64,000 nucleotides of DNA from Patescibacteria group bacterium (GTDB taxonomy: Bacteria > Patescibacteriota > Microgenomatia > UBA1400 > PJMF01): assembly GCA_045541795.1 (NCBI GenBank), contig JAZQJV010000018.1, positions 197,134 through 261,133 of the forward strand, read 5' to 3'. Made by a program: the position numbers and the translations under genes. Each line of letters begins with the position of its first letter. Position 1 is the first letter of the stretch. Shown here piece by piece: positions 3,001 to 33,702 of the stretch. The notes below the pieces were generated by a model. The model had not been told where the DNA came from, did not search any database, and was given only the letters and a program-made list of their open reading frames with translations.

Positions 3001-4045
3001 AAGTCATTTTAGCCTGCTCCAGTGGTTGGGGCTGCTGGCCAGCCTGACGATAATATCTGCTTTGATCGTGTGTTGGCAGATAAGCTCGACTTACCGCAGT
3101 TTTTTGCAGCAAAGCGGACTTTCTGGTGATCAGCTGTGGTCACTGATACGCCAAGCCGCGCTCACAAGCACCCTCAACCAAGACGGCCAGACGAGCCTCT
3201 TACTTCTGGGGACAGACGAGCTCGAGACGCGCCCGGGTAATTGGCCGCTTACAGACACCATGATGCTGATCAAAGCTCAGCCTGAGTTTAGCAACATCAC
3301 TCTGCTTTCGCTGCCGCGCGACTTAGTCTTGCCCGGGGACAAAAACAGAATTAACGCGATATATCCCATATTTTATCAAGAATCAACTCAAACGGCTGGG
3401 CTGGCGACTGCTCAGTATTTATCCAGCCGGCTGGATATACCCATCCATTATCAGGTAGTAGTCACGATGCGTGACGTCGCTGATTTCATTGATCTGGTGG
3501 GCGGGGTGGACGTGGAAATTGCCCGTTCGTTTATTGATTACCAGTATCCACGTGACGACGTGGACGTCACCACGGTGCGCGATCCCCAGCTGCTTTATGA
3601 GACGGTGGAATTTACTGCCGGCCCGGCGCATTTAGATGGGCCGACGGCGCTCAAATTTATGCGCTCGCGCCACGCTCAAAATGAAGAAGGCTCTGATTTT
3701 GCCCGCGCGACGCGTCAGCGGCAAGTCATTGAAGCGCTCGCCAGCAAACTTGGCGCGCGCTTTCGTGATGATCTGCGCCGTTATGATTTGCGCTTACTGG
3801 GTGAGTGTTACCAATTTTACAATGATCGTTTTGCTGATCAATTACCATTTACACACGCACTCGCACTGGCTTTAGACTTTCTCTCGCGTGAACGGCTACC
3901 ACAAGTATCCAGTGGACGCTTGAGCGTCGATGAGCCTGGCAGCGTCTTACATGAAAACAAGCGCGATTTCACGATTCAAGCAGACAGTCTGGAGGCACTG
4001 CGCGCGGCCGTGCGTCGTGAGCTTAAGTGGGGCAGTGGCGAGTAA
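2951..4045 (+). CDS. LytR-CpsA-Psr (LCP) family cell-envelope polymer transferase
   Basis: N-terminal TM helix, then LLLLGTDE..R...DTMML, LSLPRD, GGVDV and FMRSRHA...G.D..R..RQRQV motifs typical of the LCP domain. Confidence 0.75.
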   Translation: MMTVWRKLMFAPRWTYKSHFSLLQWLGLLASLTIISALIVCWQISSTYRSFLQQSGLSGDQLWSLIRQAALTSTLNQDGQTSLLLLGTDELETRPGNWPLTDTMMLIKAQPEFSNITLLSLPRDLVLPGDKNRINAIYPIFYQESTQTAGLATAQYLSSRLDIPIHYQVVVTMRDVADFIDLVGGVDVEIARSFIDYQYPRDDVDVTTVRDPQLLYETVEFTAGPAHLDGPTALKFMRSRHAQNEEGSDFARATRQRQVIEALASKLGARFRDDLRRYDLRLLGECYQFYNDRFADQLPFTHALALALDFLSRERLPQVSSGRLSVDEPGSVLHENKRDFTIQADSLEALRAAVRRELKWGSGE

Positions 4046-4134
4046 GATCAGCTAAATTTCCCCGCCGCCGTGTCATTTTGCGCGGCCCGAAATGCTACGT
4101 GTACGATGTCACTTTTCGTGATATAATACCCAAT

Positions 4135-4944
4135 ATGTCCGCCAAAACATTCCGACCATCACGCCCGCGCTACGCCAAACGTCCCGCAAGCAATTACCAC
4201 TCTCCCCGTACAAAGGTGCGCCCGTCTTCAAGATCAGATCGCAAACTCATCCGCCCCCTTTTTTGGCTTTTGGCACTGTTGATTTTTTTCGTGGTCATCT
4301 ATTTTTTGACCCGTCGTTTTTTTGTGGTGCGCCGGGTGGGTTGCATCATCAATCGCACGAACACGCCTTGCTCAGCGTCGCTGTGGGAGGCTGCCCACAA
4401 GCTGCAGGGCCAACCGCTGCTTTTTGCAGATTTTGCCACTATCCTGGAGAGCGCCCACACTGAGGGGACTGATTTTGACTATGTCACGTACTATAAGATC
4501 CTGCCCGATAGTGTCATTGCTGATTATCATTTCCCTTCTCCCGTCTACTCACTCAGTATTGGCGATGGCAGCCCTCTCGGTTTTAGTCTTGACGGCCGCT
4601 ACACGATCGCCACGGGCGAAGCCGACCTCATTCACATCCGCTCTCATTACGCGCCGCTCAATGAGCGGCTGGCTCAGTTTGGGGTGGACGAACTTTTGCA
4701 CCAAAAATTTCTGGAATTGGATTTTTATTCGCGCGGGCACCGGGATAATTGGCAGTGGGTGACTCTCTACTCGCGCGGTCACATGCAAATTGCCACGCCC
4801 AATGCCGTCTATGATGTGGACCCCTTCCAGCTGGATGAAAACCTGCAAAAACTTTACTACGTCGAAAAAAACCGCCACAGCGACAAGTATCAGGAAATTG
4901 ACTTGCGGCTCAATGTCCCCGTCGTGCGAGACTTGGTAAATTAG
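4135..4944 (+). CDS. Putative cell division protein FtsQ/DivIB (basic cytoplasmic N-terminus, single TM, extracytoplasmic domain)
   Basis: Sits immediately upstream of ftsA-ftsZ. Topology is a basic N-terminus, one TM (LFWLLALLIFFVVIYFL) and an extracellular domain of about 190 aa. A TGATATAAT -10 box lies at 4118-4126. Assignment rests on synteny and topology. Confidence 0.4.
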   Translation: MSAKTFRPSRPRYAKRPASNYHSPRTKVRPSSRSDRKLIRPLFWLLALLIFFVVIYFLTRRFFVVRRVGCIINRTNTPCSASLWEAAHKLQGQPLLFADFATILESAHTEGTDFDYVTYYKILPDSVIADYHFPSPVYSLSIGDGSPLGFSLDGRYTIATGEADLIHIRSHYAPLNERLAQFGVDELLHQKFLELDFYSRGHRDNWQWVTLYSRGHMQIATPNAVYDVDPFQLDENLQKLYYVEKNRHSDKYQEIDLRLNVPVVRDLVN

Positions 4945-5050
4945 ACAAAATCGCAAAATTTGTCCGTCCACAAAGAGCAAGAGTGTGATATAATGGAGTA
5001 AAGAAATTGATACTTGATTTTTTGATAAAAATAGTTTATAAAGAAGCACT

Positions 5051-6361
5051 ATGATACAAAAAAGCGCCACCGGAAAAGAAATGATTGCCGCAGTTGATCT
5101 CGGCTCCAGTCATACTGTCACCCTAATTGCTAGTCGGGAAGCTGACGGCAATTTTAAAATCGTGGGCATTGGTGATGTCCCTTCGGTTGGCATCCGCCGG
5201 GCCAATATCGTCAACCTCGAGCAAGCCACCCAGACTCTCGAGCGCTCCGTGGCTATGGCTGAGCAAATGTGTGGCAATAATGTCGATAAAGTTTATGTCA
5301 ACGTTTCTGGCGCTCATATTGGTTATCGTAATTCCAACGGCGTGGTGGTCGTGGCGAGTGATGACGGCATTGAAGAATCTGACATTGACCGCGCCATCGA
5401 ATCCGCGCGCGCCATTAATCTTCCCGCTGACCAAGAAGTGCTCACTGTCACGCCTCGCACCTACAAAGTTGATGATCAAGAAGGTATCCTTGATCCATTA
5501 GGCATGGTCGGTCAGCGCCTAGAAGTCGAAATTCACATGATTACTGCTTCCTCCGCTGTGCTGCGCAACCTCGAAAAAGCCCTGGCTACGATCGGCTTAG
5601 AAAAGGAATCATTTGTTTTTGGCGGCTATGCCGCCAGCGAAGTCGTCATTGATGACAACGAAAAAAATGCCGGTGTCATTTGCATTGATATTGGCGCGGA
5701 TACGACCAGCTATTGCGTTTATCTTGACGGTGCGATCCAGCTTTCGGGCGTGGTGCCGATCGGCAGCCGCTACGTGTCGCAAGACATTAACGCCTACACC
5801 CGCGTCGGTTTAGACAAAGCAGAACGCATCAAACTTGATTTATCCAAAGACGCCAGCGAGCCCATCAAACAGCGTGAAGGCGAGACCCGTGAAGAATTCC
5901 GCCGCCGTTACAAAGCGGCCGATATATTTGACCTCACTAAATACGATCCCGGCGTCAAACCAGCGACCGTTTCCAAAGCCATGCTCGTGCGCACCGTCAT
6001 CGGCGCTAGACATCGGGAGATTTTTAGTCTCATCGCTGATGACCTCAAAAAAAATAAAATCGCCGACAAACTGGGCGCCGGTGCTGTCCTCGTTGGTGGC
6101 GGGGCCAAAGCCATTGGCGTGGGTGAAGTGGCCATGCAAACCCTCGGGATGCAAGTGCGCCTCGGTGTACCGCGTGGTATTGATGGCGTCATCCGTCACC
6201 TTGATGATCCGATTTATGCTACAGTGATCGGTTTGCTGCGCTATGCCAACCATGAACAGGCAGCAGCGCCCATCAGTGATCCTGCAGCCAGCGCCAAGCA
6301 AAGTAATCTGCCCAGTTTTATTAATGAAGTGGCGAGGAAATTTAAAAAATGGATGCCGTAG
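5051..6361 (+). CDS. ftsA: Cell division protein FtsA
   Basis: Actin-like ATPase; N-terminal AAVDLGSSHT; correct length; directly upstream of ftsZ. Confidence 0.85.
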   Translation: MIQKSATGKEMIAAVDLGSSHTVTLIASREADGNFKIVGIGDVPSVGIRRANIVNLEQATQTLERSVAMAEQMCGNNVDKVYVNVSGAHIGYRNSNGVVVVASDDGIEESDIDRAIESARAINLPADQEVLTVTPRTYKVDDQEGILDPLGMVGQRLEVEIHMITASSAVLRNLEKALATIGLEKESFVFGGYAASEVVIDDNEKNAGVICIDIGADTTSYCVYLDGAIQLSGVVPIGSRYVSQDINAYTRVGLDKAERIKLDLSKDASEPIKQREGETREEFRRRYKAADIFDLTKYDPGVKPATVSKAMLVRTVIGARHREIFSLIADDLKKNKIADKLGAGAVLVGGGAKAIGVGEVAMQTLGMQVRLGVPRGIDGVIRHLDDPIYATVIGLLRYANHEQAAAPISDPAASAKQSNLPSFINEVARKFKKWMP

Positions 6362-6433
6362 AGCAAAATTGCTCGTCAAATTTAAGATTTTTGTGATATA
6401 GTATGATCAACAAACAAAGGACAGAGAGAAGTT

Positions 6434-7813
6434 ATGGCACAGATCAAACCAACCAATAACACATTTGCAAAGATTAAAGTCATCGGCGTGGGCGGTGGCG
6501 GCGGTAATGCCATCAATTCCATGATTGACTCCAAACAAATACACGGCGTGGAATTTGTCAGTGTCAACACTGATGCTCAAGCACTCATGAATTCGCTGGC
6601 CGAAACCAAAATCCAGATCGGCGATAATTACACCCGCGGCTTGGGCGCAGGCGCCAATCCCGAAGTCGGCCAAGCCGCCGCCGAAGAGTCGCGCGAAAAG
6701 CTCAAAGAAGTGATGTATGATACCGAAATGGTCTTCATCACTGCCGGCATGGGCGGCGGTACCGGTACTGGCGCCTCACCAGTGGTAGCCCAAATCGCCA
6801 AGGAAGCAGGCGCGCTCACTGTGGCCGTCGTCACCAAGCCGTTTATGTTTGAGGGCAATGCACGTATGCGCATCGCCGAAGACGGCATCGAAAACCTCAA
6901 AGATTACGTGGACGCACTCATTGTCGTCCCCAATCAACGCCTCTTGGATGTGGTCGACAAAAAAATGACGCTCATTGAAGCGTTTCACTTGGCCGATAAT
7001 GTCCTCGGGCAAGGCGTGCAAGGCATTTCTGATCTCATCACCATGCCGGGTCTGGTCAATGTCGACTTCAAAGACGTAGAACGGGTCATGACGGACTCCG
7101 GCACCGCGATGATGGGTATCGGCGAGGGCGAAGGCGAAAACCGGGCCGTCATTGCCGCGCGTATGGCCATTTCCTCGCCACTTTTGGAACTGTCTGTAGA
7201 TGGTGCTAAAGGCATTCTTTATAATATTATCGGCGGTCCGGATCTCGGGATGCAAGAAATCTCCGAAGCTAGCCAGATCATCCAGTCTACTGCCGATCCC
7301 GATGCCATCATTATTTTTGGTTCGGCGATCCGTGAAGAAATGATGGGTAAAATCCGCATCAGCGTTATCGCCACCGGCTTTGAAGAGCATGCCTACATCC
7401 CGGGAAGTATTCCCTACGATCAACGTTTTGCGCCGCTTGGCGGGTCACTGCCAGCCGCGAGCTCTGTTGCTGCTATCCCGGCCTCACCTTTGCCGGCAAG
7501 TACGCTCAATCCCGCTCCGCCCAAAATCCAAATCAGCGAGACACCGACTAACTTTGTACAGCCACGCGCCGACATCAAACCAGATCCCCTGACAATGCCA
7601 CTTGGTAATGTCGCCACGCAGTTTGCGCCCCGGCAGGCTTACGATCCCATCCCTACGCCGCGCGCGATTAAAATCGAGCAGACGAGCAACATTGATCAAG
7701 CCGCACCCAGTTATCCGCCCTCACGTCCCACTCCAGCCAAAACGGAAACGGATTCTTACAGCGACGAAAACGACGTTTTCGCGCCGCCGGCTTTCCTGCG
7801 CAACCGCCGCTAA
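6434..7813 (+). CDS. ftsZ: Cell division GTPase FtsZ with long Pro-rich C-terminal tail
   Basis: [11 protein letters not shown] tubulin signature and [12 protein letters not shown]-loop region. C-terminal Pro-rich linker of about 130 aa. Confidence 0.9.
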
Positions 7814-7846
7814 AAGTCATCATCTATCCGGCCGAAAATAGTTAAT

Positions 7847-7978
7847 CTTTCATTTTGTGTGGCACGAAATGCTACACGTGTGGCATTACTTTTCATTTTT
7901 CGCCTGGTAAATATATCATAAACTGTGTGGCACTGGCGTAATAGCGTGTGGCATTTTGAGCACAAAATGTGTACAATC
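7847..7978. repeat. Direct repeat copy 1 (about 130 bp) containing four GTGTGGCA(C/T)T iteron-like units
   Basis: Near-identical to 10079-10230. Internal 8-mers GTGTGGCA repeat four times. Confidence 0.8.
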
Positions 7979-8298
7979 TAGTCATTGACACATTAATAAA
8001 ATGTGATATAATATCAGCTGACACCATTAATAAGGAATAAGAGAAGGGAGTCTGAGTGAAATTCTAAGATGAGGAAAATCAACACACGATTAATCACATC
8101 CGATGACACTAGAGCAGGGACGAAGGAGCCTTGGAATTGTGCACGCAATAAGGTGAGTGATGCTTTATCCGGTATTAGTGCATAATTTTTCCCTCTTATT
8201 TCCTTGCATTAATGGTGTCGCCGGAAGTACGACAGTACGTGTATCGCTCACCTTTAGTATATACTGAGGTTTGCGATCTCCGGCACTAGCAGATACAA

Positions 8299-9564
8299 AT
8301 GAAAGGCAGTATGCGCACTGTTTATGGGCGGATCTTTTTGGTGGCCACATTGGTAACGTTGGCAAACTTTCCCCCTAAGATAGGGGAAACAGGCGGGCTC
8401 GAAGAGCCCAACCTAAGGGAGTATGAATATAAGCAAGCAACCGTCTACGCTGCTACGTCCACCCTTACGACCAAAAAGATTAAAGACGTGCAGCTGGGTG
8501 AAGTCATCCAGATCGGCAGCAGTAAGTTTGTAAAAATCGCCGCCAACCGCTATCAAGCAGTAAAACCGTATACTTGTGCTGACCCGGTACTCACGTATGC
8601 TGGCGCTAGCAAAGGTTTCACTTATACGGGAAACTATCAGACCTTTACGGCGTACGCCGGGTGTCAGTATCAGGTAGAGTTGTGGGGAGCAAGAGGCGGA
8701 AACAGTAGAAATAATGGTGGCACAACTTACGTGGGTGGATATGGAGGCTATGTGAGCGGTACAATCATGATGAATACAAGGATGAATTTTTACGTATACA
8801 TAGGTGGCCAAGGAACGAATACAGATACTGGGGGTTGGAATGGCGGCGGCTACTTGACTGGTGGGCAAAGTTCTTTCGGTGGCAGCGGAGGCGGCGCTAG
8901 TGACATTAGGACCATATCCGGATCTTGGAATAATGATAATTCTCTGTGTAGTCGTATAATGGTGGCTGGCGCCGGCGGTGGTGGTGACGCTCGTGCCGAA
9001 GGATATGGTGACGGTAAGGGTGGCGACGGTGGAGGATTGTACGGAATACGCGGGCAGGCTATCAATCATACTAATGGCTATGGCTATTGTCAATCTTCTG
9101 GGGGAACACAAGTATCTGGTGGACAGCAAATGTGTTATGGTGAAATAATGTCTGATGATAAAGCAATAGGCTATTTTGGTGCAGCCTGCCAAAATCCGGA
9201 CAATTCAGATGCGTGGGCGCAAAGTGGCGGAGGCTCTGGATGGTATGGAGGTAGTGCTTCTAATCATTCTGGCGCTGGCGGCGGTTCCTCTTACATCTCC
9301 GGCCATACCGGCTGCGTCGCTGTTACCTCACAAAGCGACACTACTCCCAAATCGGGCTGTACTACCGGCACTACTAATTACCCTTGCTCACTTAGTCCTA
9401 CAGGATTGAGTTTTACTGACACCGTAATGATCGACGGCGCTGGTTATTCCTGGACAAATGTGAAAGGATCGCTCAAGCAAATGCCCAATCCGTCAGGCGG
9501 TTACTACGCCAGTGGCGTAGGCCATACCGGTAATGGTGCCGCCCGCATCACGCGCCTTAATTAG
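8299..9564 (+). CDS. Secreted glycine-rich domain protein (ALK/LTK-type Gly_rich-like)
   Basis: N-terminal hydrophobic signal/anchor. Repeated blocks NFYVYIGGQG, GGSGGGASDIRT and RIMVAGAGGGG resemble the glycine-rich domain family. Strong TTGACA-N17-TATAAT promoter at 7985-8012 with a 290-nt leader. Confidence 0.6.
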   Translation: MKGSMRTVYGRIFLVATLVTLANFPPKIGETGGLEEPNLREYEYKQATVYAATSTLTTKKIKDVQLGEVIQIGSSKFVKIAANRYQAVKPYTCADPVLTYAGASKGFTYTGNYQTFTAYAGCQYQVELWGARGGNSRNNGGTTYVGGYGGYVSGTIMMNTRMNFYVYIGGQGTNTDTGGWNGGGYLTGGQSSFGGSGGGASDIRTISGSWNNDNSLCSRIMVAGAGGGGDARAEGYGDGKGGDGGGLYGIRGQAINHTNGYGYCQSSGGTQVSGGQQMCYGEIMSDDKAIGYFGAACQNPDNSDAWAQSGGGSGWYGGSASNHSGAGGGSSYISGHTGCVAVTSQSDTTPKSGCTTGTTNYPCSLSPTGLSFTDTVMIDGAGYSWTNVKGSLKQMPNPSGGYYASGVGHTGNGAARITRLN

Positions 9565-9751
9565 TCACTTACTACTCTTTCTACTTTTTTAGATGTGCCT
9601 GCGCCCGCGAAAGCGGGCGCAGATGTATGCGACTTTTCACTCTTGCAATTTTTGGCTTTTTATGGTATAAATATACAAAATACAATCACAAGAGCAAATA
9701 ATTACTCAAAATATAGAATCGAAGATCCTGGCGATCAGGAACCAATACGTT

Positions 9752-9988
9752 ATGCTAGATCGCGACTTGGCAGATTTATACGGAGTACCAACTAAGCGTC
9801 TAAATGAACAAGTAAAGCGCAACAGCGAACGTTTTCCAGCAAGCTTTATGTTTCAATTAAGTGAGCAAGAGTTTGAGAATTGGAGGTCGCAATTTGCGAC
9901 CTCCAGTGCGGATAAAATTGGTTTGCGCCGTCCACCATATGCATTTACCGAACAAGGTGTTGCCATGCTTTCTGCAGTCCTCCACTAG
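9752..9988 (+). CDS. ORF6N-domain protein (phage/mobile-element KilA-N-like DNA-binding family)
   Basis: MLDRDLADLYGV.TKRLNEQVKRN.ERFP..FMFQLS..E...WRSQFATS....R.PYAFTEQGVAMLS closely matches the ORF6N domain consensus. Promoter TGGTATAAAT lies just upstream. Confidence 0.55.
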   Translation: MLDRDLADLYGVPTKRLNEQVKRNSERFPASFMFQLSEQEFENWRSQFATSSADKIGLRRPPYAFTEQGVAMLSAVLH

Positions 9989-10078
9989 GAGCCTCGCTAA
10001 AGGACCTAGGCAAAAAGTGTTTTGCATTCCAAATAATGGATAAAAGTTGGATTCCTCAATTACTAAGTCGCATATAAA

Positions 10079-10230
10079 AACTTTTTTGTGTAGCACGAAA
10101 TGCCACACGTGTGGCATTACTTTTCATTTTTCGCCTGGTAAATATATCATAAACTGTGTGGCATTTTGCGCCTTTTGTGTGGCACTGGCGCAGTAGCGTG
10201 TGGCATTTTGAGCACAAAATGTGTACAATC
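10079..10230. repeat. Direct repeat copy 2 (about 150 bp) with five GTGTGGCA(C/T)T units
   Basis: Same sequence as 7847-7978 with one extra iteron unit (gtgtggcattttgcgcctttt). Confidence 0.8.
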
Positions 10231-11338
10231 ACTGCCAGTAAACGTCCAGCTGCGTCGTCCCCAACTTATACTTTTCCGCTGTCTGTGTCAGCGCCTCAAA
10301 TCTCGCTGCCAATGCACCGGCACTCGCTTCCCGCCAAAAAAGCTGTAAGTGCCCCGGTTCATCAGTCAGGATCATTTCTGGCTCTAGTAGTGCCAATATT
10401 TCATCATGAAAATCGAGCATATTATAATAGACGCTGGCTTGATATTTTGGCCGGACCTGGAAAATCGCCGCCCACTGCTGTCCATCATTTATGCTTACAG
10501 GCGCCAAATAGCTCGCCTTTGCTGTCAGCCCCGCAGACGCAGCGTTTATCCGCGCTGTAAGTGAGTAATCTAAAGTCGCCACCGTACAAACGTGGGCATC
10601 TAAGTATTGATGCGGGCTCATACTGTCACGCAGATAATAATGACACTCCAGCATTCTGGTGGTGGGGAAAGCGGACACCGTAGCCGTGACGGCTTCCAAA
10701 AAACCGTCCACGGGCAAACGTAACTCATCGTCTAGCTGTACCATCTGGAAAGGTAACGTGATGGCCGGGCGCGCCGATTCGTCTGTTGGCAAAAACTGCG
10801 ATAGATAATGATGACGCTCATCCGCGATCACTACCAACGCCAGATCGATACCAATTATCAATACGGTGGCCAGCGAATAGATAAAAAGTAATCCGCTTTT
10901 GATAAATACCTCACTTTTTGCCTTAAGTAAAGCGCGGCCAAGAATGCTGCTGAGGGTAAAAAGGATCGCGGGCGCCAGGCAGAGGGTCTCAAATAAATAC
11001 GGTACCGCTAAAGGGTCAAAAGGCCAGACAGCCCCAAAAGCTAAGGCCCACCACCCTACGTAAGCGACGAGTTGTGCTACCACACTCAAAAGTCCTAGTG
11101 TCTGGACCAGTAGTAAGTGATGAAAAATGAGCAGCCCGCACGCTCGCGTCAAGCTCGCCCACAATGCCGTCACAAGCCCCAGGCACATCAGTACAGAGGC
11201 TAATGGCGGCACACCGCCAGCAAATAGGCAACTTGTCGCCGCCACAATCAACAAAGCGATGCCAAGAAAAGACAGTAGCGAAAAAACACGTTGCCAGGCA
11301 AAAAGCGGTGAGTGAGTCTTTAACTTCATAAAGATCAT
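10229..11338 (-). CDS. Hypothetical polytopic membrane protein with C-terminal soluble domain
   Basis: About five N-terminal TM helices followed by a soluble domain of about 200 aa; no recognisable motif. Confidence 0.5.
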   Translation of the reverse strand: MIFMKLKTHSPLFAWQRVFSLLSFLGIALLIVAATSCLFAGGVPPLASVLMCLGLVTALWASLTRACGLLIFHHLLLVQTLGLLSVVAQLVAYVGWWALAFGAVWPFDPLAVPYLFETLCLAPAILFTLSSILGRALLKAKSEVFIKSGLLFIYSLATVLIIGIDLALVVIADERHHYLSQFLPTDESARPAITLPFQMVQLDDELRLPVDGFLEAVTATVSAFPTTRMLECHYYLRDSMSPHQYLDAHVCTVATLDYSLTARINAASAGLTAKASYLAPVSINDGQQWAAIFQVRPKYQASVYYNMLDFHDEILALLEPEMILTDEPGHLQLFWREASAGALAARFEALTQTAEKYKLGTTQLDVYWQ

Positions 11339-15904: not shown

Positions 15905-16777
15905 ATGTCAAATCTTACAGTCCAAGATGGAGAAAAACTTTTTAATGATTATTTAACGGCCAGCGGTAAGGCCCATGCTACTATTATCGCTTATTCAAAA
16001 GACATCGAGCAGTTGACGGAATTTCTGCTCGGTCGGGGTAAAACTCAAATGGAAGCCGTCGGTGTTGATGATCTGGAGGCCTATAAGGAATATCTGGGCA
16101 AGGTTTACCGCTCGGATAAAACGGTGTCCCGCAAAGTCAATTCCGTGAAGTCTTATTTCCGCTATCTATCGGATAATCACTACATCCCGGATAATCCTTC
16201 ACGCTTGGTGGCTCAGCCCCAGTGTGAACAGACTCCGCCTCGAGTACTCAGTAAAACCGAGTACCGCGCTTTGCGTGATGCCTGCCGGGGTGACGTCCGG
16301 ATGCTGGCAGTGGTAGAAACCCTGCTGCAGACCGGGATGCGTATCAGCGAGCTGGCCAACCTCAAACTTGATGACCTCGACTTTGACCGCGGTGTGATCA
16401 ACATCGAGACCGAAGACACGCATCTCAATCGTAAGGTGCCGCTCAATGAGACCGCGAAGAAAACACTTCAGGCTTACCTGAAAGTCCGCCCGCGCGCGCG
16501 CGAAAAGACCGTTTTCTTGACCAAGACCTGTAAACCATTTTTGGTACGCAATATCCGTAAGTCCCTGGATCGGTATTTCCGGCTGGCGGGCTTGGGTGCT
16601 GGGGTCAAGGTCAATGACCTGCGTCACACCTTTATCGTCGAGCAGTTGCGCGCCGGTTTACCAATGGTCTATGTCTCGCAGATCGTGGGTCACAAACGCC
16701 TCACGACCACGGAAAAATACTTAGCTTTCGTCAAGATTCCTGAGTATGATGCCAACATCAAAATTGAGACCCTGTAA
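15905..16777 (+). CDS. Tyrosine site-specific recombinase (XerC/XerD family)
   Basis: Catalytic R (GMRISE), DLRHTF box and HKRLTTTEKYL box II with the Tyr nucleophile. Confidence 0.8.
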   Translation: MSNLTVQDGEKLFNDYLTASGKAHATIIAYSKDIEQLTEFLLGRGKTQMEAVGVDDLEAYKEYLGKVYRSDKTVSRKVNSVKSYFRYLSDNHYIPDNPSRLVAQPQCEQTPPRVLSKTEYRALRDACRGDVRMLAVVETLLQTGMRISELANLKLDDLDFDRGVINIETEDTHLNRKVPLNETAKKTLQAYLKVRPRAREKTVFLTKTCKPFLVRNIRKSLDRYFRLAGLGAGVKVNDLRHTFIVEQLRAGLPMVYVSQIVGHKRLTTTEKYLAFVKIPEYDANIKIETL

Positions 16778-26404: not shown

Positions 26405-27769
26405 ATGTATAGCAAATTTTTGGGGCGTTTGTTCCTCACGGCTAGTTTCATCCCGCTGGCCGTGGGGCGTGCTGCCGCCGCCTCCAGCACTACCACCACG
26501 ATGAAACTGATAGACACCCCGCTGGCTGCAGTGGTGGGTACGGGGGGACGCGTCAATCTCATCCGCACGGCAGATAACACTTGGCAAGCCACGGATAACT
26601 CCAACTGCCCAGACGGCGCTGCTTATCCCAACGGCACTGCTCACTGTTTTGCCGCCAAAGGTGATTACACCGCCGCCCAGGTCTATCAGTACTCCTGCCG
26701 CAAGCACACCTGCTCAGCCGATACCGTGTGGAATCCCGCCTCAGGCACCTGTATCCCGATCGTGGATTACGGCTGTACCCACACCAATAACTTCATGACA
26801 CTGCAAGACTGGGACGGCTGTAGTGCTCTGGCCACACCGGCCGCCGGCGGCAATAATTACACCGCTGGGCCGTGCTTGATCGACAATCGCGACGGCAAGA
26901 CGTACAATGTCCGCAAATTTGCCGACGGCAAATGCTGGCTGGCCAACAACTTGAAGTTTGGCGGCGATTATCACTACTGGCACAATATCAAAGGTCAGTC
27001 AGCTGATACCTGCGCGCTGCGGCTGGGCAGTAAGTGGCAGTCTGGCGGCTTCAACAATCTCTATACCAATCAGTCTGCGGCCAAGCCGCCCACCAATCGC
27101 TTCTGGCAAGGCTCTTACGGCGACTGCGTCTATCCGTACTCATCCACCTCTAGTAGTGATGCCAGCAATAAATACGGCTATCTTTACAACTGGATGGCAG
27201 CCGTACAGTCTCCTTGCGGCTGGTATAGTCAAGAATGTGATCCTGACGCCATGGCGACCAATACCGACGGCAAAGGCACCTACGGGACGCAAAAAATCCA
27301 AGGCATTTGTCCGGAAGGCTGGCATCTGCCCACGGGCGGTACTGGTGGCGAGTTTAATATCCTCACTGACCGGGTTGCTGGTATCACTGGTGGCAGTAGT
27401 CACTTGGCCGATGAGTCCAATACTGCCGGCGGTTGTTATACCAAAGGTAATACTACCTGTGGTATTTGGTCTGATACTAGCCGCAATGGTGGTAACGGTA
27501 GTTACGTTTTAACTTTCTTCAACCCTGGAGGAGGTTTTAATACTACTTATGCCGGCCGTACCAATTACATTGGTGAGTCTGGGGCTACAGAAACTACTGC
27601 CGTCGGCCTGATCTACCAGGGGTCGAACGCGCGCTATTGGTCCTCTACTGCTAGGTCTACTACCAACGCCTACGGCTTGGACGTGTACAGCTCGGGCGTG
27701 AGACCCCTAGGCTACCATCCGGGCGACAGCAAGTACTACGGCTTTTCGGTTCGCTGCGTGCTGGATTAG
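26405..27769 (+). CDS. Secreted Fibrobacter-succinogenes-major-paralogous (FISUMP/DUF1566-like) domain protein; DGR variable (target) protein
   Basis: Signal peptide. Motifs DNRDGKTYNVRKFADGKCWLANNL, YGYLYNWMAA, CPEGWHLPT and GFSVRCV match TIGR02145-type domains. The C-terminal 58 codons form the VR. Confidence 0.8.
   Translation: MYSKFLGRLFLTASFIPLAVGRAAAASSTTTTMKLIDTPLAAVVGTGGRVNLIRTADNTWQATDNSNCPDGAAYPNGTAHCFAAKGDYTAAQVYQYSCRKHTCSADTVWNPASGTCIPIVDYGCTHTNNFMTLQDWDGCSALATPAAGGNNYTAGPCLIDNRDGKTYNVRKFADGKCWLANNLKFGGDYHYWHNIKGQSADTCALRLGSKWQSGGFNNLYTNQSAAKPPTNRFWQGSYGDCVYPYSSTSSSDASNKYGYLYNWMAAVQSPCGWYSQECDPDAMATNTDGKGTYGTQKIQGICPEGWHLPTGGTGGEFNILTDRVAGITGGSSHLADESNTAGGCYTKGNTTCGIWSDTSRNGGNGSYVLTFFNPGGGFNTTYAGRTNYIGESGATETTAVGLIYQGSNARYWSSTARSTTNAYGLDVYSSGVRPLGYHPGDSKYYGFSVRCVLD
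27588..27764 (+). repeat. DGR variable repeat (VR) at the 3-prime end of the target gene
   Basis: About 175 bp matching TR (30483-30655). It differs at 18 positions, every one an adenine in TR. Confidence 0.9.
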
Positions 27770-27781
27770 GTTTCCGGTTTG

Positions 27782-27866
27782 GGGCGCGGCTGTGGACCCA
27801 CGACCGGCGGAGCTTATGCGCAGCCGAGGCGGCAGCTTGCTGCCAGCCACAGTGGGGACCGGCCGC
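27782..27866 (+). promoter_or_regulatory. GC-rich inverted-repeat/hairpin structure immediately 3-prime of VR (DGR homing-associated structure)
   Basis: ggcgcggctgtgg...ccacagtgggg...gccgcgcc imperfect long stem plus inner perfect hairpin GGCAGCTTGCTGCC. Confidence 0.6.
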
Positions 27867-27959
27867 GCCGGCCACCAAAAAAGTAGCTTGAGCAATAAAA
27901 ATTAATTAGAAAAAATTATAAATTATAAAGTAAATCAAACATCAAAAAAAAGGAATATT

Positions 27960-28946
27960 ATGACGACAAACTCCAAAAAAGCACCCATCAAAAATCAGGC
28001 CGCGCCGGCCAGCAACTCTGGCGTCGCCAAAAAAATCACCAGTGCGGGCGGCGAGCAAAGTGATCTTTTTGCCGGCATGGCTCTGCCGGAGGCGGCCAAA
28101 AAAGCCGAAGCTCGGGTCTTCAAGGTGGGCCTGAGTGCCAAAGAAAAAAAGACCGCCGCCAAAATCAAGGAAATCCGCAACCGCGACCACAAAATCGGCC
28201 TGATTGACGAGTGGATCGAGGCCGAAGACGCCAATTTTGACACGATCATCCTTCACAAAGAGTACGATATGTTTGTGGCTTTCAACCAAAGCGCTTATCA
28301 GCTGCGCGTCAAACTCCATCCTGGCCTCAAGCTCTACTTACAGCTCAACAAATACCGCCCCGAAGCCTTACGGGTGGCCTTGGGCAAAAATCAGCTGATA
28401 GACATCCGCCTGGCGGCCGAGGAAGCGGGCTTACAGATGCAAGAGTTCAAGGATGACAACCAAGAAGTGCAGACTATCATCATCTCCGGCCTCGCCACCA
28501 TCACCAGTGAAGAATTTAATAACTGGAAAGCCTCATACATTGCCAATATCGAAAAAGCCCAAGCTACCATCAAACCATTTTACGGCGACCTCAATATTTA
28601 CAAAAGTCTCATGGATCTATCCGTGATGGAAATGCACGCCGTGGGTAATTTCCCGCGTCACATCCGTGAGGTGATCGGCCCACAATTACTCTCACTAGTC
28701 ACGGCGGCCATCGCTCTCATCCGTGATGCCACCCTCAAAAAAGAAGACGAGCTGCCGCTGCCGCGCAAAATCGCTGTGGTGATGGAGCTGGAGAAAAATA
28801 TTGATCAGCAGGGATTTTTGCTACAGACATCTCTCAATCTCCAGGTGCTCAATACCGATAGCTTTGCCCGGCTCGCCAGTGTCATGGGTGAGCTCATCCA
28901 TCAGCTCACAGCCTGGAAATTATCCCTCAAAAAGAAACGGGCATAA
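27960..28946 (+). CDS. DGR accessory protein (328 aa; basic N-terminus, helical C-terminal region possibly Avd-like)
   Basis: Sits between VR and RT in the position usually occupied by avd, but is about 2.5 times longer than a canonical Avd. No recognisable enzymatic motif. Confidence 0.5.
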   Translation: MTTNSKKAPIKNQAAPASNSGVAKKITSAGGEQSDLFAGMALPEAAKKAEARVFKVGLSAKEKKTAAKIKEIRNRDHKIGLIDEWIEAEDANFDTIILHKEYDMFVAFNQSAYQLRVKLHPGLKLYLQLNKYRPEALRVALGKNQLIDIRLAAEEAGLQMQEFKDDNQEVQTIIISGLATITSEEFNNWKASYIANIEKAQATIKPFYGDLNIYKSLMDLSVMEMHAVGNFPRHIREVIGPQLLSLVTAAIALIRDATLKKEDELPLPRKIAVVMELEKNIDQQGFLLQTSLNLQVLNTDSFARLASVMGELIHQLTAWKLSLKKKRA

Positions 28947-28973
28947 GTAAAAAACACCGGTATATAGGCAAAA

Positions 28974-30227
28974 TTGAATGGTATCATGATCGTCGATCAA
29001 GGTGAAGTCTGGTTTGAAAGCCGCCGTCAGCAATATGTAGACAGTAATGACTGGCAGCTTTATGAGCGCCTCCTGACAGCTTATTTTGACGCCCGTCGCC
29101 ACAAACGCTCTACCAATAATCAGCTGGCATTTGAAATTGATTTGCTTCATCACGTCCAAGAACTATACGACGCCATCCATGATCGTCACTATACCCTCGA
29201 GCCTGGCATTGCTTTTGTGGTAGACGACCCCAAGCCACGCGAGATTTTGGCCGCCTCTTTCCGCGATCGGGTCGTCCATCATTTTGTCTGCAGTCTCATG
29301 ACACCGTACTGGGAGCCGCGTTTTATCGCCGACTCATATTCTTGCCGGGTGGGCAAAGGTACGCACTACGCGATCGCCCGGGCCCACAAGCACGCCCAGC
29401 GCCTCACGCACAATTACCGCGATGAAGCCTGGGTACTCAAACTCGATCTCAAGTGTTATTTTATGTACATTGACAAAGCCGTCTTGTGGGAGCTGATCCA
29501 GCCGATGTTTACGGCTGATGAGGATGCGCTCGCGGCCGGGCGCATCAGTGAGGAAGAGGCCCGCTATCATCTGGTACGCGGTTTTAATGACTATTTTGCG
29601 GCTGTTTTGGAATATTTGTTGCGGATCATTATTTTTTCCTGCCCGATGCTGAGCGTCCAGCTGCGGGGCAGACTTGATCGCTGGACGCTCCTTCCTGCCG
29701 AAAAAACCCTATTTATCGCGCCTTTTTGGCGCGGTTTTCCAATTGGTAATCTCACCAGTCAGCTGTTTTCCAATATTTATCTGCATGCTTTGGACTGTTT
29801 TATCAAATATCGGCTAGGCTTTACTCACTACGGCCGCTACGTAGACGATTTATACATGATGGATACGGATAAAACCCGCCTTAAGCGCGCCCGCACGGCT
29901 ATCGGTAAGTTTTTGGCCGACACACTTCATTTGCGCCTTCATCCTACCAAGGTGATTTTACAGCCCGTCAAGTACGGCTTTCCTTTTGTTGGTGGGGTAG
30001 TGCGTCCGCACTCCTGCGTGCCTACTCGCCGTTTCCAAAAACGCTACCAAAAATTTATGACCGGCCACTCTGCCCGGCATTACACCGAGTATCAGCGCTC
30101 CCGCATCGCTAGTTACCAAGGTCATGATACCAAGATCCGCCATCTGCCCGAGCCCAAGCGCACGCTCACACAAAAAAGGCTCAAAAGACTAGCCGACCAG
30201 CAGCAAGCGTGTATTTATCACCGCTAA
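28974..30227 (+). CDS. Diversity-generating retroelement reverse transcriptase
   Basis: RT motifs FRDRVVHH (1/2), SYSCRVGKGTHYA (3), LDLKCYFMYI (A), DGR-specific IGNLTSQLFSNIYL (motif 4, 29742-29762) and YVDD (29838-29849). Confidence 0.85.
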   Translation: MNGIMIVDQGEVWFESRRQQYVDSNDWQLYERLLTAYFDARRHKRSTNNQLAFEIDLLHHVQELYDAIHDRHYTLEPGIAFVVDDPKPREILAASFRDRVVHHFVCSLMTPYWEPRFIADSYSCRVGKGTHYAIARAHKHAQRLTHNYRDEAWVLKLDLKCYFMYIDKAVLWELIQPMFTADEDALAAGRISEEEARYHLVRGFNDYFAAVLEYLLRIIIFSCPMLSVQLRGRLDRWTLLPAEKTLFIAPFWRGFPIGNLTSQLFSNIYLHALDCFIKYRLGFTHYGRYVDDLYMMDTDKTRLKRARTAIGKFLADTLHLRLHPTKVILQPVKYGFPFVGGVVRPHSCVPTRRFQKRYQKFMTGHSARHYTEYQRSRIASYQGHDTKIRHLPEPKRTLTQKRLKRLADQQQACIYHR

Positions 30228-30482
30228 AAAGGGCTTTTTTAGTGTAAAATTAAATGGACGAAAGTCGCTCTTTGATAGCTGACGCCGTGCCCGCCCGCGT
30301 AAAATCAACTCTCGGGTGGAAGAAATCCAGCACAAAAGACCAGCCTGCTGCCGGCTTGCCGAGCGTGATAGGTATTTTGGTACCGGGGCCGCCAGGCCCG
30401 AGGGGTAATCACAAGTGGTCTGCAGTTATTTTTTTCACGTATACTGCACCAGCTGACCGTCCGCCGGTACGGTGATGACGGC

Positions 30483-30655
30483 AAAAAACTGCCGTCGGCC
30501 TGATCAACCAGGGGTCGAACGCGAACTATTGGTCCTCTACTGCTAGGTCTACTACCAACGCCTACAACTTGAACGTGAACAGCTCGAACGTGAAACCCCT
30601 AGGCAACAATCCGGGCAACAACAAGTACTACGGCTTTTCGGTTCGCTGCAATGCT
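30483..30655 (+). repeat. DGR template repeat (TR)
   Basis: Non-coding copy of VR lying 255 bp downstream of the RT gene. Rich in AAC codons in the VR frame (aac x10, aat x2, aaa x1 at variable sites). Confidence 0.9.
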
Positions 30656-30698
30656 GTCATCAGCTCACGGCGTCAGCCAAGGAGTCAGAAATTGACCC

Positions 30699-30728
30699 TT
30701 GACAACACCCCAGCCACGATCTATAATG
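30699..30728 (+). promoter_or_regulatory. Strong sigma70-like promoter (TTGACA-N18-TATAAT) with no downstream protein-coding gene
   Basis: attgacccTTGACAacaccccagccacgatcTATAATg. The next 490 bp on the + strand contain only short, low-complexity ORFs. Confidence 0.55.
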
Positions 30729-31216
30729 AACGCACATCTAAATCGTAGCAAAGAGGATTTTGAAGTTCGGTGTAGATTCAATCTCCTACTGCTAATTAGA
30801 AATCGAGCTTACGTAGATTTCTTCTTACCGTACGTAAGGTTCTGTAACAGCGTGTGGAGTCCAACGTCAAGCGCTTGGATGCGACCTGGTATCGGTTTCA
30901 TGTCTTCAGTCTTTCTCTTTCTTGTCTGAGGTTTCTTGCTGCCGGTAGTGGTGGGGTTGAATTGCGGATGCATTTGGGAAGCGAACTCACACCCGCTCGC
31001 ACACGCTCGCGCGGGCAGCACGCCGTTTGCAGGATAATTGCAGAAGAAATTAATTTTCCAGGCGTCATGCATATTTTCCGGGGGAAGAGACGAGCAAACT
31101 GCCGTTGGTGACCAAAAGGAGTTTTCATCCGAACTTTTAGACCTTTTAAATCACGATCATGACGTTATCGCTCGTGAGTATTATACCATGAAAAAGTTGC
31201 TTGATGAGATTAAAAA

Positions 31217-32350: not shown

Positions 32351-32456
32351 ATCAGACTTTCTTTTTTATACTTATAATTTACCATAAATAGTGCAAAATG
32401 TCAAATTTTCGTGCAACCTCAGTATATTTCGGAATAAAAATTCCTATCAAACAAAG

Positions 32457-33551: not shown

Positions 33552-33628
33552 ATCTGCATTATTACATCACGTTTATATTTCTTATTAATCAAGATTATTC
33601 ACGATTGCGACGAGAAAGACCCTTTTTG

Positions 33629-33702
33629 TGACCCCAAAGGGATTCGAACCCTTGATTTTTTGGATGAGAACCAAATGTCCTGGACCGCTAGACGATGGGG
33701 CC
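33629..33702 (-). tRNA. tRNA-Glu (anticodon CTC)
   Basis: Acceptor GGCCCCA/TGGGGTC. Anticodon stem TTTGG/CCAAA with loop TTCTCAT. T-arm GGGTTCGAATCCC. Confidence 0.8.

What the first reader, a model, noticed from the sequence alone, without database searches (positions are those of the whole stretch)
7847..10230. 2.4-kb cassette bounded by 130-150-bp direct repeats built from GTGTGGCA iterons
Two nearly identical non-coding repeats (7847-7978 and 10079-10230) flank a unit inserted between ftsZ and a membrane-protein gene. Each repeat carries four or five copies of GTGTGGCA(C/T)T, with the second copy holding one extra unit, plus an AT-rich core. The unit contains a strong promoter, a 290-nt leader, a secreted glycine-rich protein and an ORF6N-domain DNA-binding protein. 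The iteron-like arrays resemble replication-origin or partition-site repeats, or recombination sites, and the unequal unit number implies ongoing slippage or recombination. The ORF6N family is typical of phage and mobile-element regulators. The unit could be an excisable or invertible surface-protein cassette or a plasmid or phage remnant with its regulator binding the iterons.
Basis: seen in the sequence. Interest (0 to 1): 0.65.

Follow-up and report, generated by a model that had tools for sequence, protein, structure and literature searches.

The report
Repeat-flanked surface-protein cassette after ftsZ
Two real 126/147-base direct repeats bracket a small accessory gene cassette (a highly expressed secreted glycine-rich protein plus a broken anti-phage gene) downstream of ftsZ in an uncultured gut Patescibacteria genome. 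It looks like an old, fixed and decaying insertion, not an active plasmid, phage or replication origin.

Summary
Repeats at 7853-7978 and 10084-10230 are about 97% identical and differ by one 21-nt unit. They hold 9 of the window's 10 GTGTGGCA octamers, phased every 21 nt.

The host is a goat-gut Patescibacteria. An independent assembly (98% identical core genes) carries the same left repeat and cassette, so this is no artefact and predates the split of the two sampled strains.

Each repeat starts with a plus-strand intrinsic terminator built from two inverted octamers. I found no Rep, Par or integrase gene, no DnaA box, no GC-skew switch and no plasmid or phage match.

The ORF6N gene belongs to the anti-phage candidate family PDC-S05 and is a pseudogene here (start codon lost, internal deletion). 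It is therefore not a resident iteron-binding regulator. The promoter is a perfect consensus, and the 280-nt leader is strongly structured and invariant between strains.

A homologous glycine-rich cassette in another Patescibacteria contig (L134) is likewise flanked by roughly 106-130-nt repeats built from short motifs.

Best reading: one single-crossover insertion duplicated the module downstream of ftsZ. The repeats' further function is unproven.

The parts
7853..7978 (.). Left direct repeat (DR-L), 126 nt, the 4-unit form. It contains the ftsZ terminator hairpin, a T-tract and AT-rich spacer, two direct GTGTGGCA units, and the tail GCACAAAATGTGTACAATC.
   Evidence: L001 carries the same repeat in the 147-nt form.
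10084..10230 (.). Right direct repeat (DR-R), 147 nt, the 5-unit form. It starts 6 nt after the original ORF6N stop codon and ends inside the stop codon (10229-10231) of the minus-strand gene.
10153..10173 (.). The extra 21-nt unit present in DR-R and in L001's left repeat but missing from the window's DR-L. Its placement is ambiguous within the repeated core. The likely history is loss of one unit from DR-L.
   Evidence: alignment
7868..7900 (+). Intrinsic terminator for ftsZ: hairpin AATGCTACAC/GTGTGGCATT followed by ACTTTTCATTTTT.
   Evidence: The two substitutions seen in the 5' arm among the three copies are both C-to-U and keep G.U pairs on the plus-strand RNA.
10099..10131 (+). The same terminator in DR-R (a perfect 20-nt palindrome plus T-tract), placed after the ORF6N remnant.
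7985..8012 (+). Consensus sigma-70 promoter TTGACA-16-(TG)TATAAT, beginning 7 nt after DR-L ends.
   Evidence: 12 of 12 matches, TG extension. Similar promoters occur at 46432-46470 and 56318-56379.
8019..8298 (+). Structured 5' leader of about 280 nt. A long closing stem (8020-8048 with 8190-8220) starts at the predicted first transcribed base, and a second hairpin domain lies before the ribosome-binding site.
   Evidence: Fold z-scores -5.4 and -4.0. No differences in 280 nt between the window and L001, although flanking segments differ by 4-5%. No Rfam family. Not a member of leader family R1.
8299..9564 (+). Gene for a 421-aa glycine-rich protein (ALK/LTK glycine-rich domain) with a hydrophobic N-terminus.
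   Evidence: PF12810, E 6e-41. 655 homologues; all the near relatives fetched come from Patescibacteria-type contigs and several contigs carry more than one paralogue. dN/dS 0.18 against L001.
9599..9622 (+). GC-rich hairpin after the glycine-rich gene (putative terminator or 3' stabiliser).
   Evidence: The stem sequence differs in L001 but stays self-complementary. The 3' end of the gene plus this region is 83% identical to L081.
9680..10077 (+). Pseudogene of an ORF6N / PDC-S05-type protein. ATA replaces ATG at 9680. The domain is intact up to 9985, followed by an internal deletion and frameshift. The C-terminal tail GASLKDLGKKCFAF... survives in another frame (9988-10077).
10229..11338 (-). 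Flanking 369-aa ORF convergent with the cassette, with no Pfam family. Read as a membrane protein from its hydrophobic N-terminal half (inference from the translation; no transmembrane predictor was run).
4073..4098 (+). Third, partial and diverged copy of the left end of the repeat (23 of 26 identical to 7850-7875), in the intergenic region upstream of the gene at 4135.
   Evidence: family D7; score 37 against a null of 25.3 +/- 1.7, with 0 of 60 shuffles reaching it.

Best explanation
This is a small accessory islet, now fixed and decaying, in a goat-gut Patescibacteria (CPR) chromosome.

The ancestral arrangement was ftsZ, then a roughly 147-nt intergenic module, then a convergent gene for a hydrophobic 369-aa protein. 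The module has three parts:
1. A plus-strand intrinsic terminator whose stem is made of two inverted GTGTGGCA units.
2. A T- and AT-rich spacer.
3. Three more GTGTGGCA units phased every 21 nt, that is, on one face of the DNA helix.

The incoming unit was probably near 2.5 kb when intact. It consisted of a consensus promoter, a 280-nt stem-closed leader, a secreted glycine-rich (PF12810) surface-protein gene, and a PDC-S05/ORF6N anti-phage candidate gene. I infer that it entered by one reciprocal crossover between a copy of the module on a circular intermediate and the chromosomal copy (Campbell-type insertion-duplication). That leaves one module copy on each side.

Since then the islet has only decayed:
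- The window strain lost the ORF6N gene (start codon and an internal segment) and one 21-nt unit of the left repeat.
- The sister strain has a nonsense codon in the glycine-rich gene.

Current roles, as I read them:
- The left copy terminates ftsZ transcription. Its octamers lie at about -46 to -160 from the cassette promoter and may bind an unidentified protein.
- The leader most likely stabilises a very abundant mRNA.

Shown: the anatomy, the conservation between strains, the gene decay, and the absence of origin, partition, integrase, phage or plasmid features.
Inferred: the crossover mechanism, protein binding to the octamers, and the leader's function.
For: Repeats and motif statistics.

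Host and second strain: L001 is a goat jejunum MAG. ftsA and ftsZ are 98.3-98.6% identical, and it has the same DR-L-to-cassette junction.

Repeat boundaries:
- The left edge lies 40 nt after the ftsZ stop in DR-L, and 6 nt after the original ORF6N stop in DR-R.
- The right edge lies 7 nt before the cassette's -35 box in DR-L, and inside the stop codon of the convergent gene in DR-R.
- This is what a single crossover within one intergenic module would leave.

Terminator: predicted. Both substitutions in the 5' arm are C-to-U and preserve pairing only in the plus-strand RNA.

Age: DR-L and DR-R differ by 4 of 126 positions. DR-L differs by 5 of 126 between the strains, where dS of ftsA/ftsZ is 0.06. 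The duplication is therefore about as old as the strain split.

Decay:
- ORF6N has ATG changed to ATA, plus a deletion.
- L001's glycine-rich gene has CAA changed to TAA at codon 46.

Foreign, accessory nature:
- Relatives lack the cassette.
- The 3' end of the glycine-rich gene and its 3' UTR are 83% identical to an unrelated contig, L081.
- ORF6N is 68% identical to proteins found very widely and matches PDC-S05. One PDC-S05 representative protected E. coli from T7, T5 and T4 phages (bioRxiv 10.1101/2024.09.26.614923).

Recurrence: in L134 a homologous glycine-rich gene plus a small CdiA_C gene is flanked by 106-130-nt direct repeats (87% identical, 2067 nt apart). Those repeats are also built from a short repeated motif and end just upstream of the cassette promoter.

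Leader: z -5.4, and 0 differences in 280 nt between strains. Every homologous gene examined has a consensus-like promoter and a leader whose stem starts at about +1.
Against: - No empty site (ftsZ, one module, then the 369-aa gene) was found in any relative, so insertion is inferred, not observed.
- No recombinase gene and no circular form was seen.
- DR-R is seen only in this window, because L001 ends before it.
- A third partial copy of the repeat's left end at 4073-4098 hints that the module, or part of it, is a dispersed or locally reiterated element rather than a unique intergenic sequence.
- The repeat is no more conserved between strains than neutral sites, and 3 of the 6 variable sites fall in octamer cores. 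Sequence evidence that the octamers are functional protein-binding sites is therefore lacking.
- A consensus promoter needs no activator.
Confidence: 0.45

Rival explanations
1. The 126/147-nt sequence is a copy of a dispersed, modular intergenic repeat, comparable to pneumococcal BOX elements or Neisseria Correia elements. It would be bounded by imperfect inverted ends, contain a variable number of internal units, and carry terminator and weak promoter activity. Under this view the cassette lies between two such copies because dispersed copies provide portable homology for recombination, or because the element inserted twice.
For: - The two ends of the repeat are imperfect inverted repeats: TTTTGTGTAGCACGAAATGCCACACG on the left and CGTGTGGCATTTTGAGCACAAAA on the right (folds).
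- The unit number varies.
- A third partial copy lies 3.8 kb upstream.
- In the organisms behind L134 and L081 the analogous module occurs at three or more sites.
- A related array marks the exact synteny breakpoint between two strains (L125 and L126).
Against: - There are only two full copies in 64 kb. They are 2.2 kb apart, in the same orientation, and exactly bracket a foreign-looking unit.
- No other match was found in the window, in the JGI metagenome contigs or in viral contigs.
- The homology runs 11 nt beyond the right inverted end.
- No target-site duplication is visible.
Confidence: 0.2
2. Both repeats are working operator banks for a DNA-binding protein encoded elsewhere. Proteins bound to the two arrays, 2.2 kb apart, would interact (as in phage lambda OL-OR looping) to silence or insulate the very strong cassette promoter. 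The duplication would then be maintained by selection.
For: - The 21-nt phasing equals two helical turns.
- Each repeat has one perfect 16-20-bp palindrome plus direct half-sites.
- The octamers lie at about -46, -70, -91, -138 and -159 from the predicted start site (read from the sequence).
- The analogous L134 repeats carry overlapping palindromes, GTTAAAC-ATTT-GTTTAAC.
Against: - There is no excess conservation of the octamer cores.
- The motif is absent from the rest of the window, so no regulon is visible.
- No candidate regulator was identified, and the only DNA-binding gene in the unit is dead.
- The window strain lost one unit with no sign of compensation.
Confidence: 0.12
3. One reading: an excisable or invertible cassette, or an integrated plasmid or phage remnant. 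The iterons would act as origin, partition or recombination sites bound by the ORF6N protein.
For: - Iteron-like arrays next to an AT-rich stretch.
- Direct repeats flank the unit.
- ORF6N genes are common in mobile and defence regions.
- A Xer-like tyrosine recombinase gene lies 5.7 kb away.
Against: - No Rep, Par, integrase or structural genes are present.
- No DnaA box lies in the repeats.
- There is no skew switch.
- No dif-like or attC-like core sites can be read in the sequence.
- No plasmid or phage homology was found.
- ORF6N is a pseudogene here, yet the repeats persist.
- Direct repeats cannot mediate inversion.
- Both strains retain the unit.
Confidence: 0.07
4. The repeat encodes a small Cys/His-rich peptide on the minus strand (10232-10056, 58 aa, with KCHT heptads). 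Translation would be coupled to the upstream 369-aa gene through a GTGA start/stop overlap. The left repeat would then be a dead duplicate.
For: - An open frame runs through the whole right repeat.
- The 21-nt unit equals 7 codons, so it keeps the frame.
- There is a GTGA overlap with the upstream stop codon.
- Two of the DR-L versus DR-R differences are synonymous in this frame (read from the sequence).
Against: - The ORF is purely mechanical and contains a perfect 20-nt palindrome.
- Its C-terminus lies outside the repeat and differs between the two copies.
- The left copy has no coupled start, yet is equally well preserved.
- L001 has a Leu-to-Pro change in the frame.
- The hairpin substitutions fit a plus-strand RNA, not this frame.
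Confidence: 0.03
5. The duplication is an assembly artefact.
For: Repeats of this size can be mis-assembled, and the L001 contig stops before the right repeat.
Against: The copies differ by four substitutions and a 21-nt indel, and each has unique flanks. The left junction is reproduced in an independent assembly.
Confidence: 0.02

Closest known systems
Genomic islets or islands bounded by attL/attR direct repeats after Campbell-type integration (from general knowledge)
   Same: A foreign-looking gene unit sits between two near-identical direct repeats that duplicate the sequence at the 3' end of a conserved gene. The host gene's 3' signals are restored on both sides.
   Different: There is no integrase or excisionase in the unit. 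The repeat is long (126-147 nt) and internally repetitive. No empty site or circular form has been shown. The unit is only about 2 kb.
Iteron-type plasmid origins (for example R6K, pPS10, P1, F) and parC-type centromeres (from general knowledge)
   Same: Short direct repeats phased at about two helical turns, next to an AT-rich stretch and a promoter.
   Different: There is no Rep or ParR/ParM gene and no DnaA box. The sequence is chromosomal and present in two copies. The conserved core of each unit is only 8-10 nt. One pair of units is inverted and acts as an RNA terminator.
Integron cassettes flanked by near-identical attC sites (Vibrio cholerae repeats; integrase-less attC clusters) and Acinetobacter pdif modules (from general knowledge)
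   Same: Small gene cassettes without their own recombinase are bracketed by 60-150-nt repeated sites. The pattern recurs for a homologous cassette in another genome (L134).
   Different: The window repeat has no RYYYAAC/GTTRRRY core sites. Its single-stranded fold is not a bulged attC hairpin. The cassette carries its own strong promoter. No integron integrase was seen. It does not have the inverted XerC/XerD site pairs of pdif modules.
BOX elements (pneumococcus) and Correia elements (Neisseria) (from general knowledge)
   Same: Intergenic length of 100-150 nt, a modular build with a variable number of internal units, inverted ends, and terminator and promoter-like activity.
   Different: Those families have tens to hundreds of dispersed copies. 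Here there are two full copies and one fragment in 64 kb, all within 6 kb of each other.
Long structured 5' leaders of S-layer and other abundant surface-protein mRNAs, and 5'-terminal stem-loop stabilisers such as ompA or aprE (from general knowledge)
   Same: A consensus promoter is followed by a 170-280-nt untranslated leader whose stem starts at the first transcribed bases, upstream of a secreted surface-type protein.
   Different: No half-life or processing data exist. The window's leader has no sequence relatives outside its own species and is not in Rfam.

Membership tests
Iteron-controlled replication origin | An array of direct repeats (about 17-22 bp) phased on one face of the helix | tested here: met
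   GTGTGGCA-centred units are 21 nt apart, four or five per repeat.
Iteron-controlled replication origin | An adjacent gene for the cognate initiator (Rep) | tested here: not met
   The unit encodes only a PF12810 protein and an ORF6N/PDC-S05 pseudogene.
Iteron-controlled replication origin | DnaA box(es) and an AT-rich unwinding element beside the iterons | tested here: not met
   No TTATCCACA match (up to 1 mismatch) falls in either repeat. Only a 26-nt AT-rich spacer is present.
Chromosomal origin or terminus (oriC / dif) | A GC-skew sign change at the locus | tested here: not met
   GC skew is negative on both sides. The only positive stretch is the G-rich cassette itself.
Xer/dif-dependent integrated element (IMEX) or pdif module | Flanking 28-bp sites made of an XerC arm, a 6-bp spacer and an XerD arm | tested here: not met
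   Inspection of the AT-rich core found at best a 9 of 11 match to one XerD-type arm (TTATGATATAT, minus strand), with no partner arm. A Xer-like gene does exist at 15905-16777.
Integrase-mediated integrative element (attL/attR) | Direct repeats at both ends that duplicate the target | tested here: met
Integrase-mediated integrative element (attL/attR) | A recombinase gene inside the element | tested here: not met
   ORF list
Integrase-mediated integrative element (attL/attR) | An empty site in relatives, or excision or circular junctions | not testable with these tools
   The nearest other genomes (FtsZ 74% identical or less) have different neighbours after ftsZ. No reads are available.
Integron cassette / attC | R''(RYYYAAC)...R'(GTTRRRY) core sites and a bulged hairpin in single-stranded DNA | tested here: not met
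   No such cores lie at the ends of the repeat. The DNA fold has z -2.5 to -2.9 but is multi-branched.
Dispersed intergenic repeat (BOX / Correia / MITE-like) | Many copies scattered through the genome | tested here: inconclusive
   Two full copies plus one 26-nt fragment in 64 kb. The rest of the genome was not available.
Dispersed intergenic repeat (BOX / Correia / MITE-like) | Terminal inverted repeats and a modular internal structure of variable length | tested here: met
   The ends pair in the predicted folds. There is a 21-nt unit polymorphism.
PDC-S05 anti-phage candidate (ORF6N family) | Full-length match to the PADLOC PDC-S05 profiles | tested here: not met
   Only the N-terminal 100 residues match (E 1.6e-44). 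The start codon is lost and the middle is deleted. It is a family member by descent but a pseudogene.
ALK/LTK glycine-rich domain family (PF12810) | Pfam match above the gathering score | tested here: met
   141 bits against a cutoff of 24.5, covering residues 123-419.
Known RNA family for the leader (Rfam), or leader family R1 of related glycine-rich genes | A covariance-model match | tested here: not met
   No Rfam hit even at E up to 10. No R1 hit in the window.

The most novel reading that the evidence does not exclude
Patescibacteria may have a cassette system that works in trans. Surface-protein and defence gene units, each with its own promoter and leader, would be moved between intergenic sites by recombination at 100-150-nt modules built from phased short repeats. 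No recombinase would be linked to the cassette. This would be functionally analogous to integron attC cassettes or pdif modules, but with unrelated sites. The window and L134 would be two independent examples. The L125/L126 breakpoint and the short repeats flanking single genes in L081 and L123 would be further traces.
Probability: 0.12. Interest if true: 0.7.

Novelty: new variant of a known kind. Interest (0 to 1): 0.4.

Why it matters
Mobile-element biology in Patescibacteria (CPR) is poorly known, and their surface proteins are central to their episymbiotic lifestyle.

If the repeat-bounded architecture is a general way of moving promoter-equipped surface-protein and defence cassettes, it would reveal a new route of gene flow and surface variation in these reduced genomes. 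The same architecture appears here and in L134.

If it is only an old insertion-duplication, the value is more modest:
- It marks the 3' flank of ftsZ as an insertion hotspot.
- It gives a clean example of reciprocal decay of the two cargo genes in sister strains.
- It pinpoints an invariant 280-nt leader RNA that deserves testing as an mRNA stabiliser.

Tried and rejected
- Rfam at gathering and at permissive thresholds found nothing for the leader or the repeats.
- Exact-protein look-ups of the window's own genes, and of several homologues held only in the NCBI source, returned nothing.
- A two-unit iteron pattern in viral contigs gave 33 hits. By a rough estimate that is about what 16 specified bases would give by chance, and the hits showed no other similarity to the locus. 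A longer pattern gave 0 hits.
- The metagenome pattern scan gave 8 hits with no further similarity.
- blastn of the cassette against plasmids and phages found only weak ORF6N-domain matches.
- The glycine-rich protein has no relative in viral contigs.
- Origin or terminus: rejected by GC skew and by the DnaA-box search.
- A sigma-54 reading of TGGCAC-N-TGC: rejected by inspection, because the GG-to-GC spacing is 2 nt too short.
- A parS-like reading of TGCCACACGTGTGGCA: only 5 of 8 matches per half-site to the remembered consensus, so I did not pursue it.
- The repeat as a structured RNA: z only -1.3 to -1.9.
- Sequence homology between the window repeat and the L134 repeat is marginal (z about 3). 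I treat the two as analogous, not homologous.
- The window leader is not a member of leader family R1.
- The apparent match of the glycine-rich gene to 45.6 kb is spurious; that locus is a C5 methylase.
- The 167-nt repeat pair at 27.6 and 30.5 kb is not a second such cassette. It is the variable and template repeat pair of a diversity-generating retroelement.
- The ORF6N homologue with many contigs (P0196) always sits in the same cas-gene context, so it gave no evidence on mobility.


Full report
**1. What is there**

The two repeats are real. 7853-7932 matches 10084-10163 at 98%, and 7924-7978 matches 10176-10230 at 96%. The right copy is 21 nt longer (alignment).

The octamer GTGTGGCA occurs 10 times in the 64-kb window against 2.5 +/- 1.6 expected, and nine of those lie in the two repeats. 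Relaxed versions of the motif are at chance level elsewhere. Direct units are 21 nt apart. One unit is inverted and abuts a direct one, giving the palindrome AATGCCACAC/GTGTGGCATT.

The four substitutions and the indel between the copies, together with unique flanks, rule out an assembly duplication.

**2. Host and population**

FtsZ places the window in Patescibacteria (relatives are labelled Pacebacteria, Microgenomates or Patescibacteria). Contig L001 is a goat jejunum MAG, RGIG2560. It is colinear with window 4011-9985. Identity by segment is:
- ftsA and ftsZ: 98.3-98.6%, dS about 0.06.
- Left repeat: 96.0%.
- Leader: 100%, with 0 differences in 280 nt.
- Glycine-rich gene: 94.9% (dS 0.144, dN/dS 0.18).

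L001's left repeat is the 147-nt, five-unit form, like the window's right repeat. The window's left repeat therefore lost one unit. That is the only slippage event that can be inferred.

L001 ends inside the ORF6N gene, so its right repeat is unseen.

The next relatives (FtsZ 66-74% identical) have unrelated genes convergent on ftsZ. They have no homologue of the 369-aa gene nearby and no GTGTGGCA arrays. The unit is accessory, but no empty site is available.

**3. Anatomy of the repeat**

The first 45 nt form a plus-strand intrinsic terminator: an 8-10-bp stem followed by ACTTTTCATTTTT. Among the three sequenced copies, the only changes in the 5' arm are two independent C-to-U changes (GCTACAC in the window's left repeat, GTCACAC in L001). 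These keep G.U pairs in a plus-strand RNA but would give A.C mismatches in a minus-strand RNA. The palindrome is therefore constrained as the ftsZ terminator.

A 26-nt T/AT-rich spacer follows, then two or three direct units, then GCACAAAATGTGTACAATC.

The repeat boundaries are informative:
- In the left copy the homology ends 7 nt before the -35 box of the cassette promoter.
- In the right copy it starts 6 nt after the original ORF6N stop and ends within the stop codon of the convergent 369-aa gene.

This is the pattern expected if one intergenic module between ftsZ and the 369-aa gene was duplicated by a single crossover with a circular molecule carrying the same module.

I found nothing that marks an origin, a partition site or a classical recombination site:
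- No DnaA boxes lie in the repeats.
- GC skew does not change sign at the locus.
- No dif-like or attC-like cores are present.
- Single-stranded folding is only moderately better than shuffles.
- The repeat has no relatives in viral, plasmid, phage or JGI metagenome collections.

A 26-nt fragment resembling the left end of the repeat lies at 4073-4098. This keeps open the possibility that the module is a reiterated element.

**4. The cargo**

The promoter at 7985-8012 is a perfect TTGACA-16-TATAAT with a TG extension. It resembles the organism's other strong promoters.

The transcript would start at about 8019-8021. Its first bases enter a roughly 29-bp closing stem (8020-8048 with 8190-8220) that encloses a branched domain, and a second hairpin domain precedes the start codon. 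Fold z-scores are -5.4 for the whole leader and -4.0 for the first domain. No Rfam family matches.

The leader is invariant between strains, although its neighbours differ by 4-5%. That indicates strong constraint.

The gene encodes a 421-aa protein with a hydrophobic N-terminus and a PF12810 (ALK/LTK glycine-rich) domain. The search returned 655 homologues. All the near relatives whose contigs I fetched come from Patescibacteria-type contigs, and several contigs carry more than one paralogue.

Every relative I could fetch (L081, L123/L124, L125/L126, L134) also has a consensus-like promoter and a 170-260-nt leader whose stem starts at about +1. Three of these leaders are homologous to one another, with 9 compensatory pairs out of 39. 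The window's leader is not in that family. By analogy with S-layer and other abundant surface-protein mRNAs (general knowledge), I read the leader as an mRNA stabiliser. This is inference.

**5. The ORF6N gene**

In L001 the gene starts with ATG and runs on past the domain. In the window the ATG is ATA. The reading frame also breaks after ...AVLH because of an internal deletion, and the family's conserved C-terminus (GASLKDLGKKCFAF...) survives in another frame. It is a pseudogene.

Its family matches the PADLOC phage-defence candidate PDC-S05. One PDC-S05 representative reduced plating of T7 and T5 about 1000-fold in E. coli (bioRxiv 10.1101/2024.09.26.614923). Homologues lie among cas genes and other defence-type genes.

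The gene is thus cargo, not a dedicated regulator of the repeats. The repeats persist without it.

Conversely, L001 carries CAA changed to TAA at codon 46 of the glycine-rich gene. Each strain has lost a different cargo gene.

**6. A second case**

In L134, from another Patescibacteria-type contig, a homologous glycine-rich gene plus a small CdiA_C-domain gene is bracketed by 106-130-nt direct repeats (87% identical, 2067 nt apart). These repeats contain the array GTTAAAC-ATTT-GTTTAAC-ATTT-GTTAAAC. The left copy ends just upstream of the cassette promoter, and the right copy precedes the promoter of the next gene.

The same module occurs in reverse orientation in L081. A related array lies exactly at the synteny breakpoint between L125 and L126. 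Shorter repeats flank single genes next to glycine-rich genes in L081 (37 nt) and L123 (57 nt).

Sequence similarity between the window repeat and the L134 repeat is marginal. The resemblance is architectural.

This recurrence is the main reason not to dismiss the finding as a one-off.

**7. Verdict**

The mechanistic reading as an origin, a partition site or an ORF6N-controlled mobile element is not supported.

The best-supported account is an old insertion-duplication of the module downstream of ftsZ by a promoter-equipped two-gene accessory cassette. The cassette predates the split of the two sampled strains and is now decaying.

Two questions remain open and need whole-genome and read-level data:
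- whether the phased octamers bind a protein;
- whether such modules are general recombination sites for cassettes in these bacteria.

Noticed in passing
window 26405-30649: A diversity-generating retroelement. The target gene at 26405-27769 (Fib_succ_major domain) has its variable region at 27591-27757. An accessory ORF lies at 27960-28946, a reverse transcriptase at 28974-30227, and the template repeat at 30483-30649. All 16 mismatches between the two 167-nt repeats fall at adenines of the template copy.
   Followed up: partly
window 15905-16777 (+): A Xer-like tyrosine recombinase gene (Phage_integrase plus SAM-like N-terminal domain), 5.7 kb from the right repeat. No recognisable dif-type site lies in the repeats.
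   Followed up: partly
window 8019-8298; L081 4831-4943; L123 4829-4940; L134 2832-2942: Glycine-rich (PF12810) genes of related Patescibacteria all carry structured 5' leaders whose stem starts at the transcription start. Three of them form a homologous RNA family with compensatory base changes that is not in Rfam. The window's own leader is different, but it is invariant between the two strains.
   Followed up: partly
L001 4445-4447 (codon 46 of the glycine-rich gene): The sister strain has a premature stop (CAA to TAA) in the glycine-rich gene, while its ORF6N gene looks intact. This is the reverse of the window strain. It could be a real polymorphism, phase-variation-like loss, or a MAG consensus error.
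   Followed up: partly
window 9226-9622 versus L081 5838-6241: The last 340 nt or so of the glycine-rich gene, together with its 3' untranslated hairpin region, are 83% identical to a gene on an unrelated contig. The N-terminal parts are only about 45% identical at the protein level. This suggests a mosaic gene or a recently exchanged 3' module.
   Followed up: no
L135 1-6455 and L136 590-3800: Other Patescibacteria contigs carry clusters of three or four glycine-rich paralogues in alternating orientation. Their 5' ends share 53-61-nt inverted repeats at 95-96% identity, although the gene bodies are only about 75% identical. This could be an inversion or gene-conversion system for surface variation.
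   Followed up: no
L125 4403-4440 / L126 4407-4440: Two strains share an identical glycine-rich locus to the right of a palindromic TGTTAAAC/GTTTAACA array but have completely different genes to its left. The breakpoint lies at the edge of the array.
   Followed up: partly
window 15295, 30689, 39830, 43205, 46432, 47424 (+); 1536, 35338, 56318, 60510 (-): At least ten copies of an extended promoter consensus, AAATTGCCTCTTGACA-N17-(TG)TATAAT. The conserved AAATTGCCTC upstream block is missing from the cassette promoter.
   Followed up: no
window 30000-36000: A low-GC stretch (0.42-0.45 against about 0.51) containing a YhcG/DUF1016 PDDEXK nuclease gene (31217-32350) and an ORF with no family (32457-33551), next to a tRNA-Glu gene. 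It may be another island.
   Followed up: no
window 56824-60435 and 60648-63473: Two large tandem paralogous ORFs (1203 and 941 aa) with no Pfam match. They share 300-nt and 45-nt blocks at 78-82% identity.
   Followed up: no
window 4073-4098: A 26-nt sequence 88% identical to the left end of the repeat (including 3 nt outside the repeat homology), in the intergenic region just before a promoter-like TGATATAAT.
   Followed up: partly
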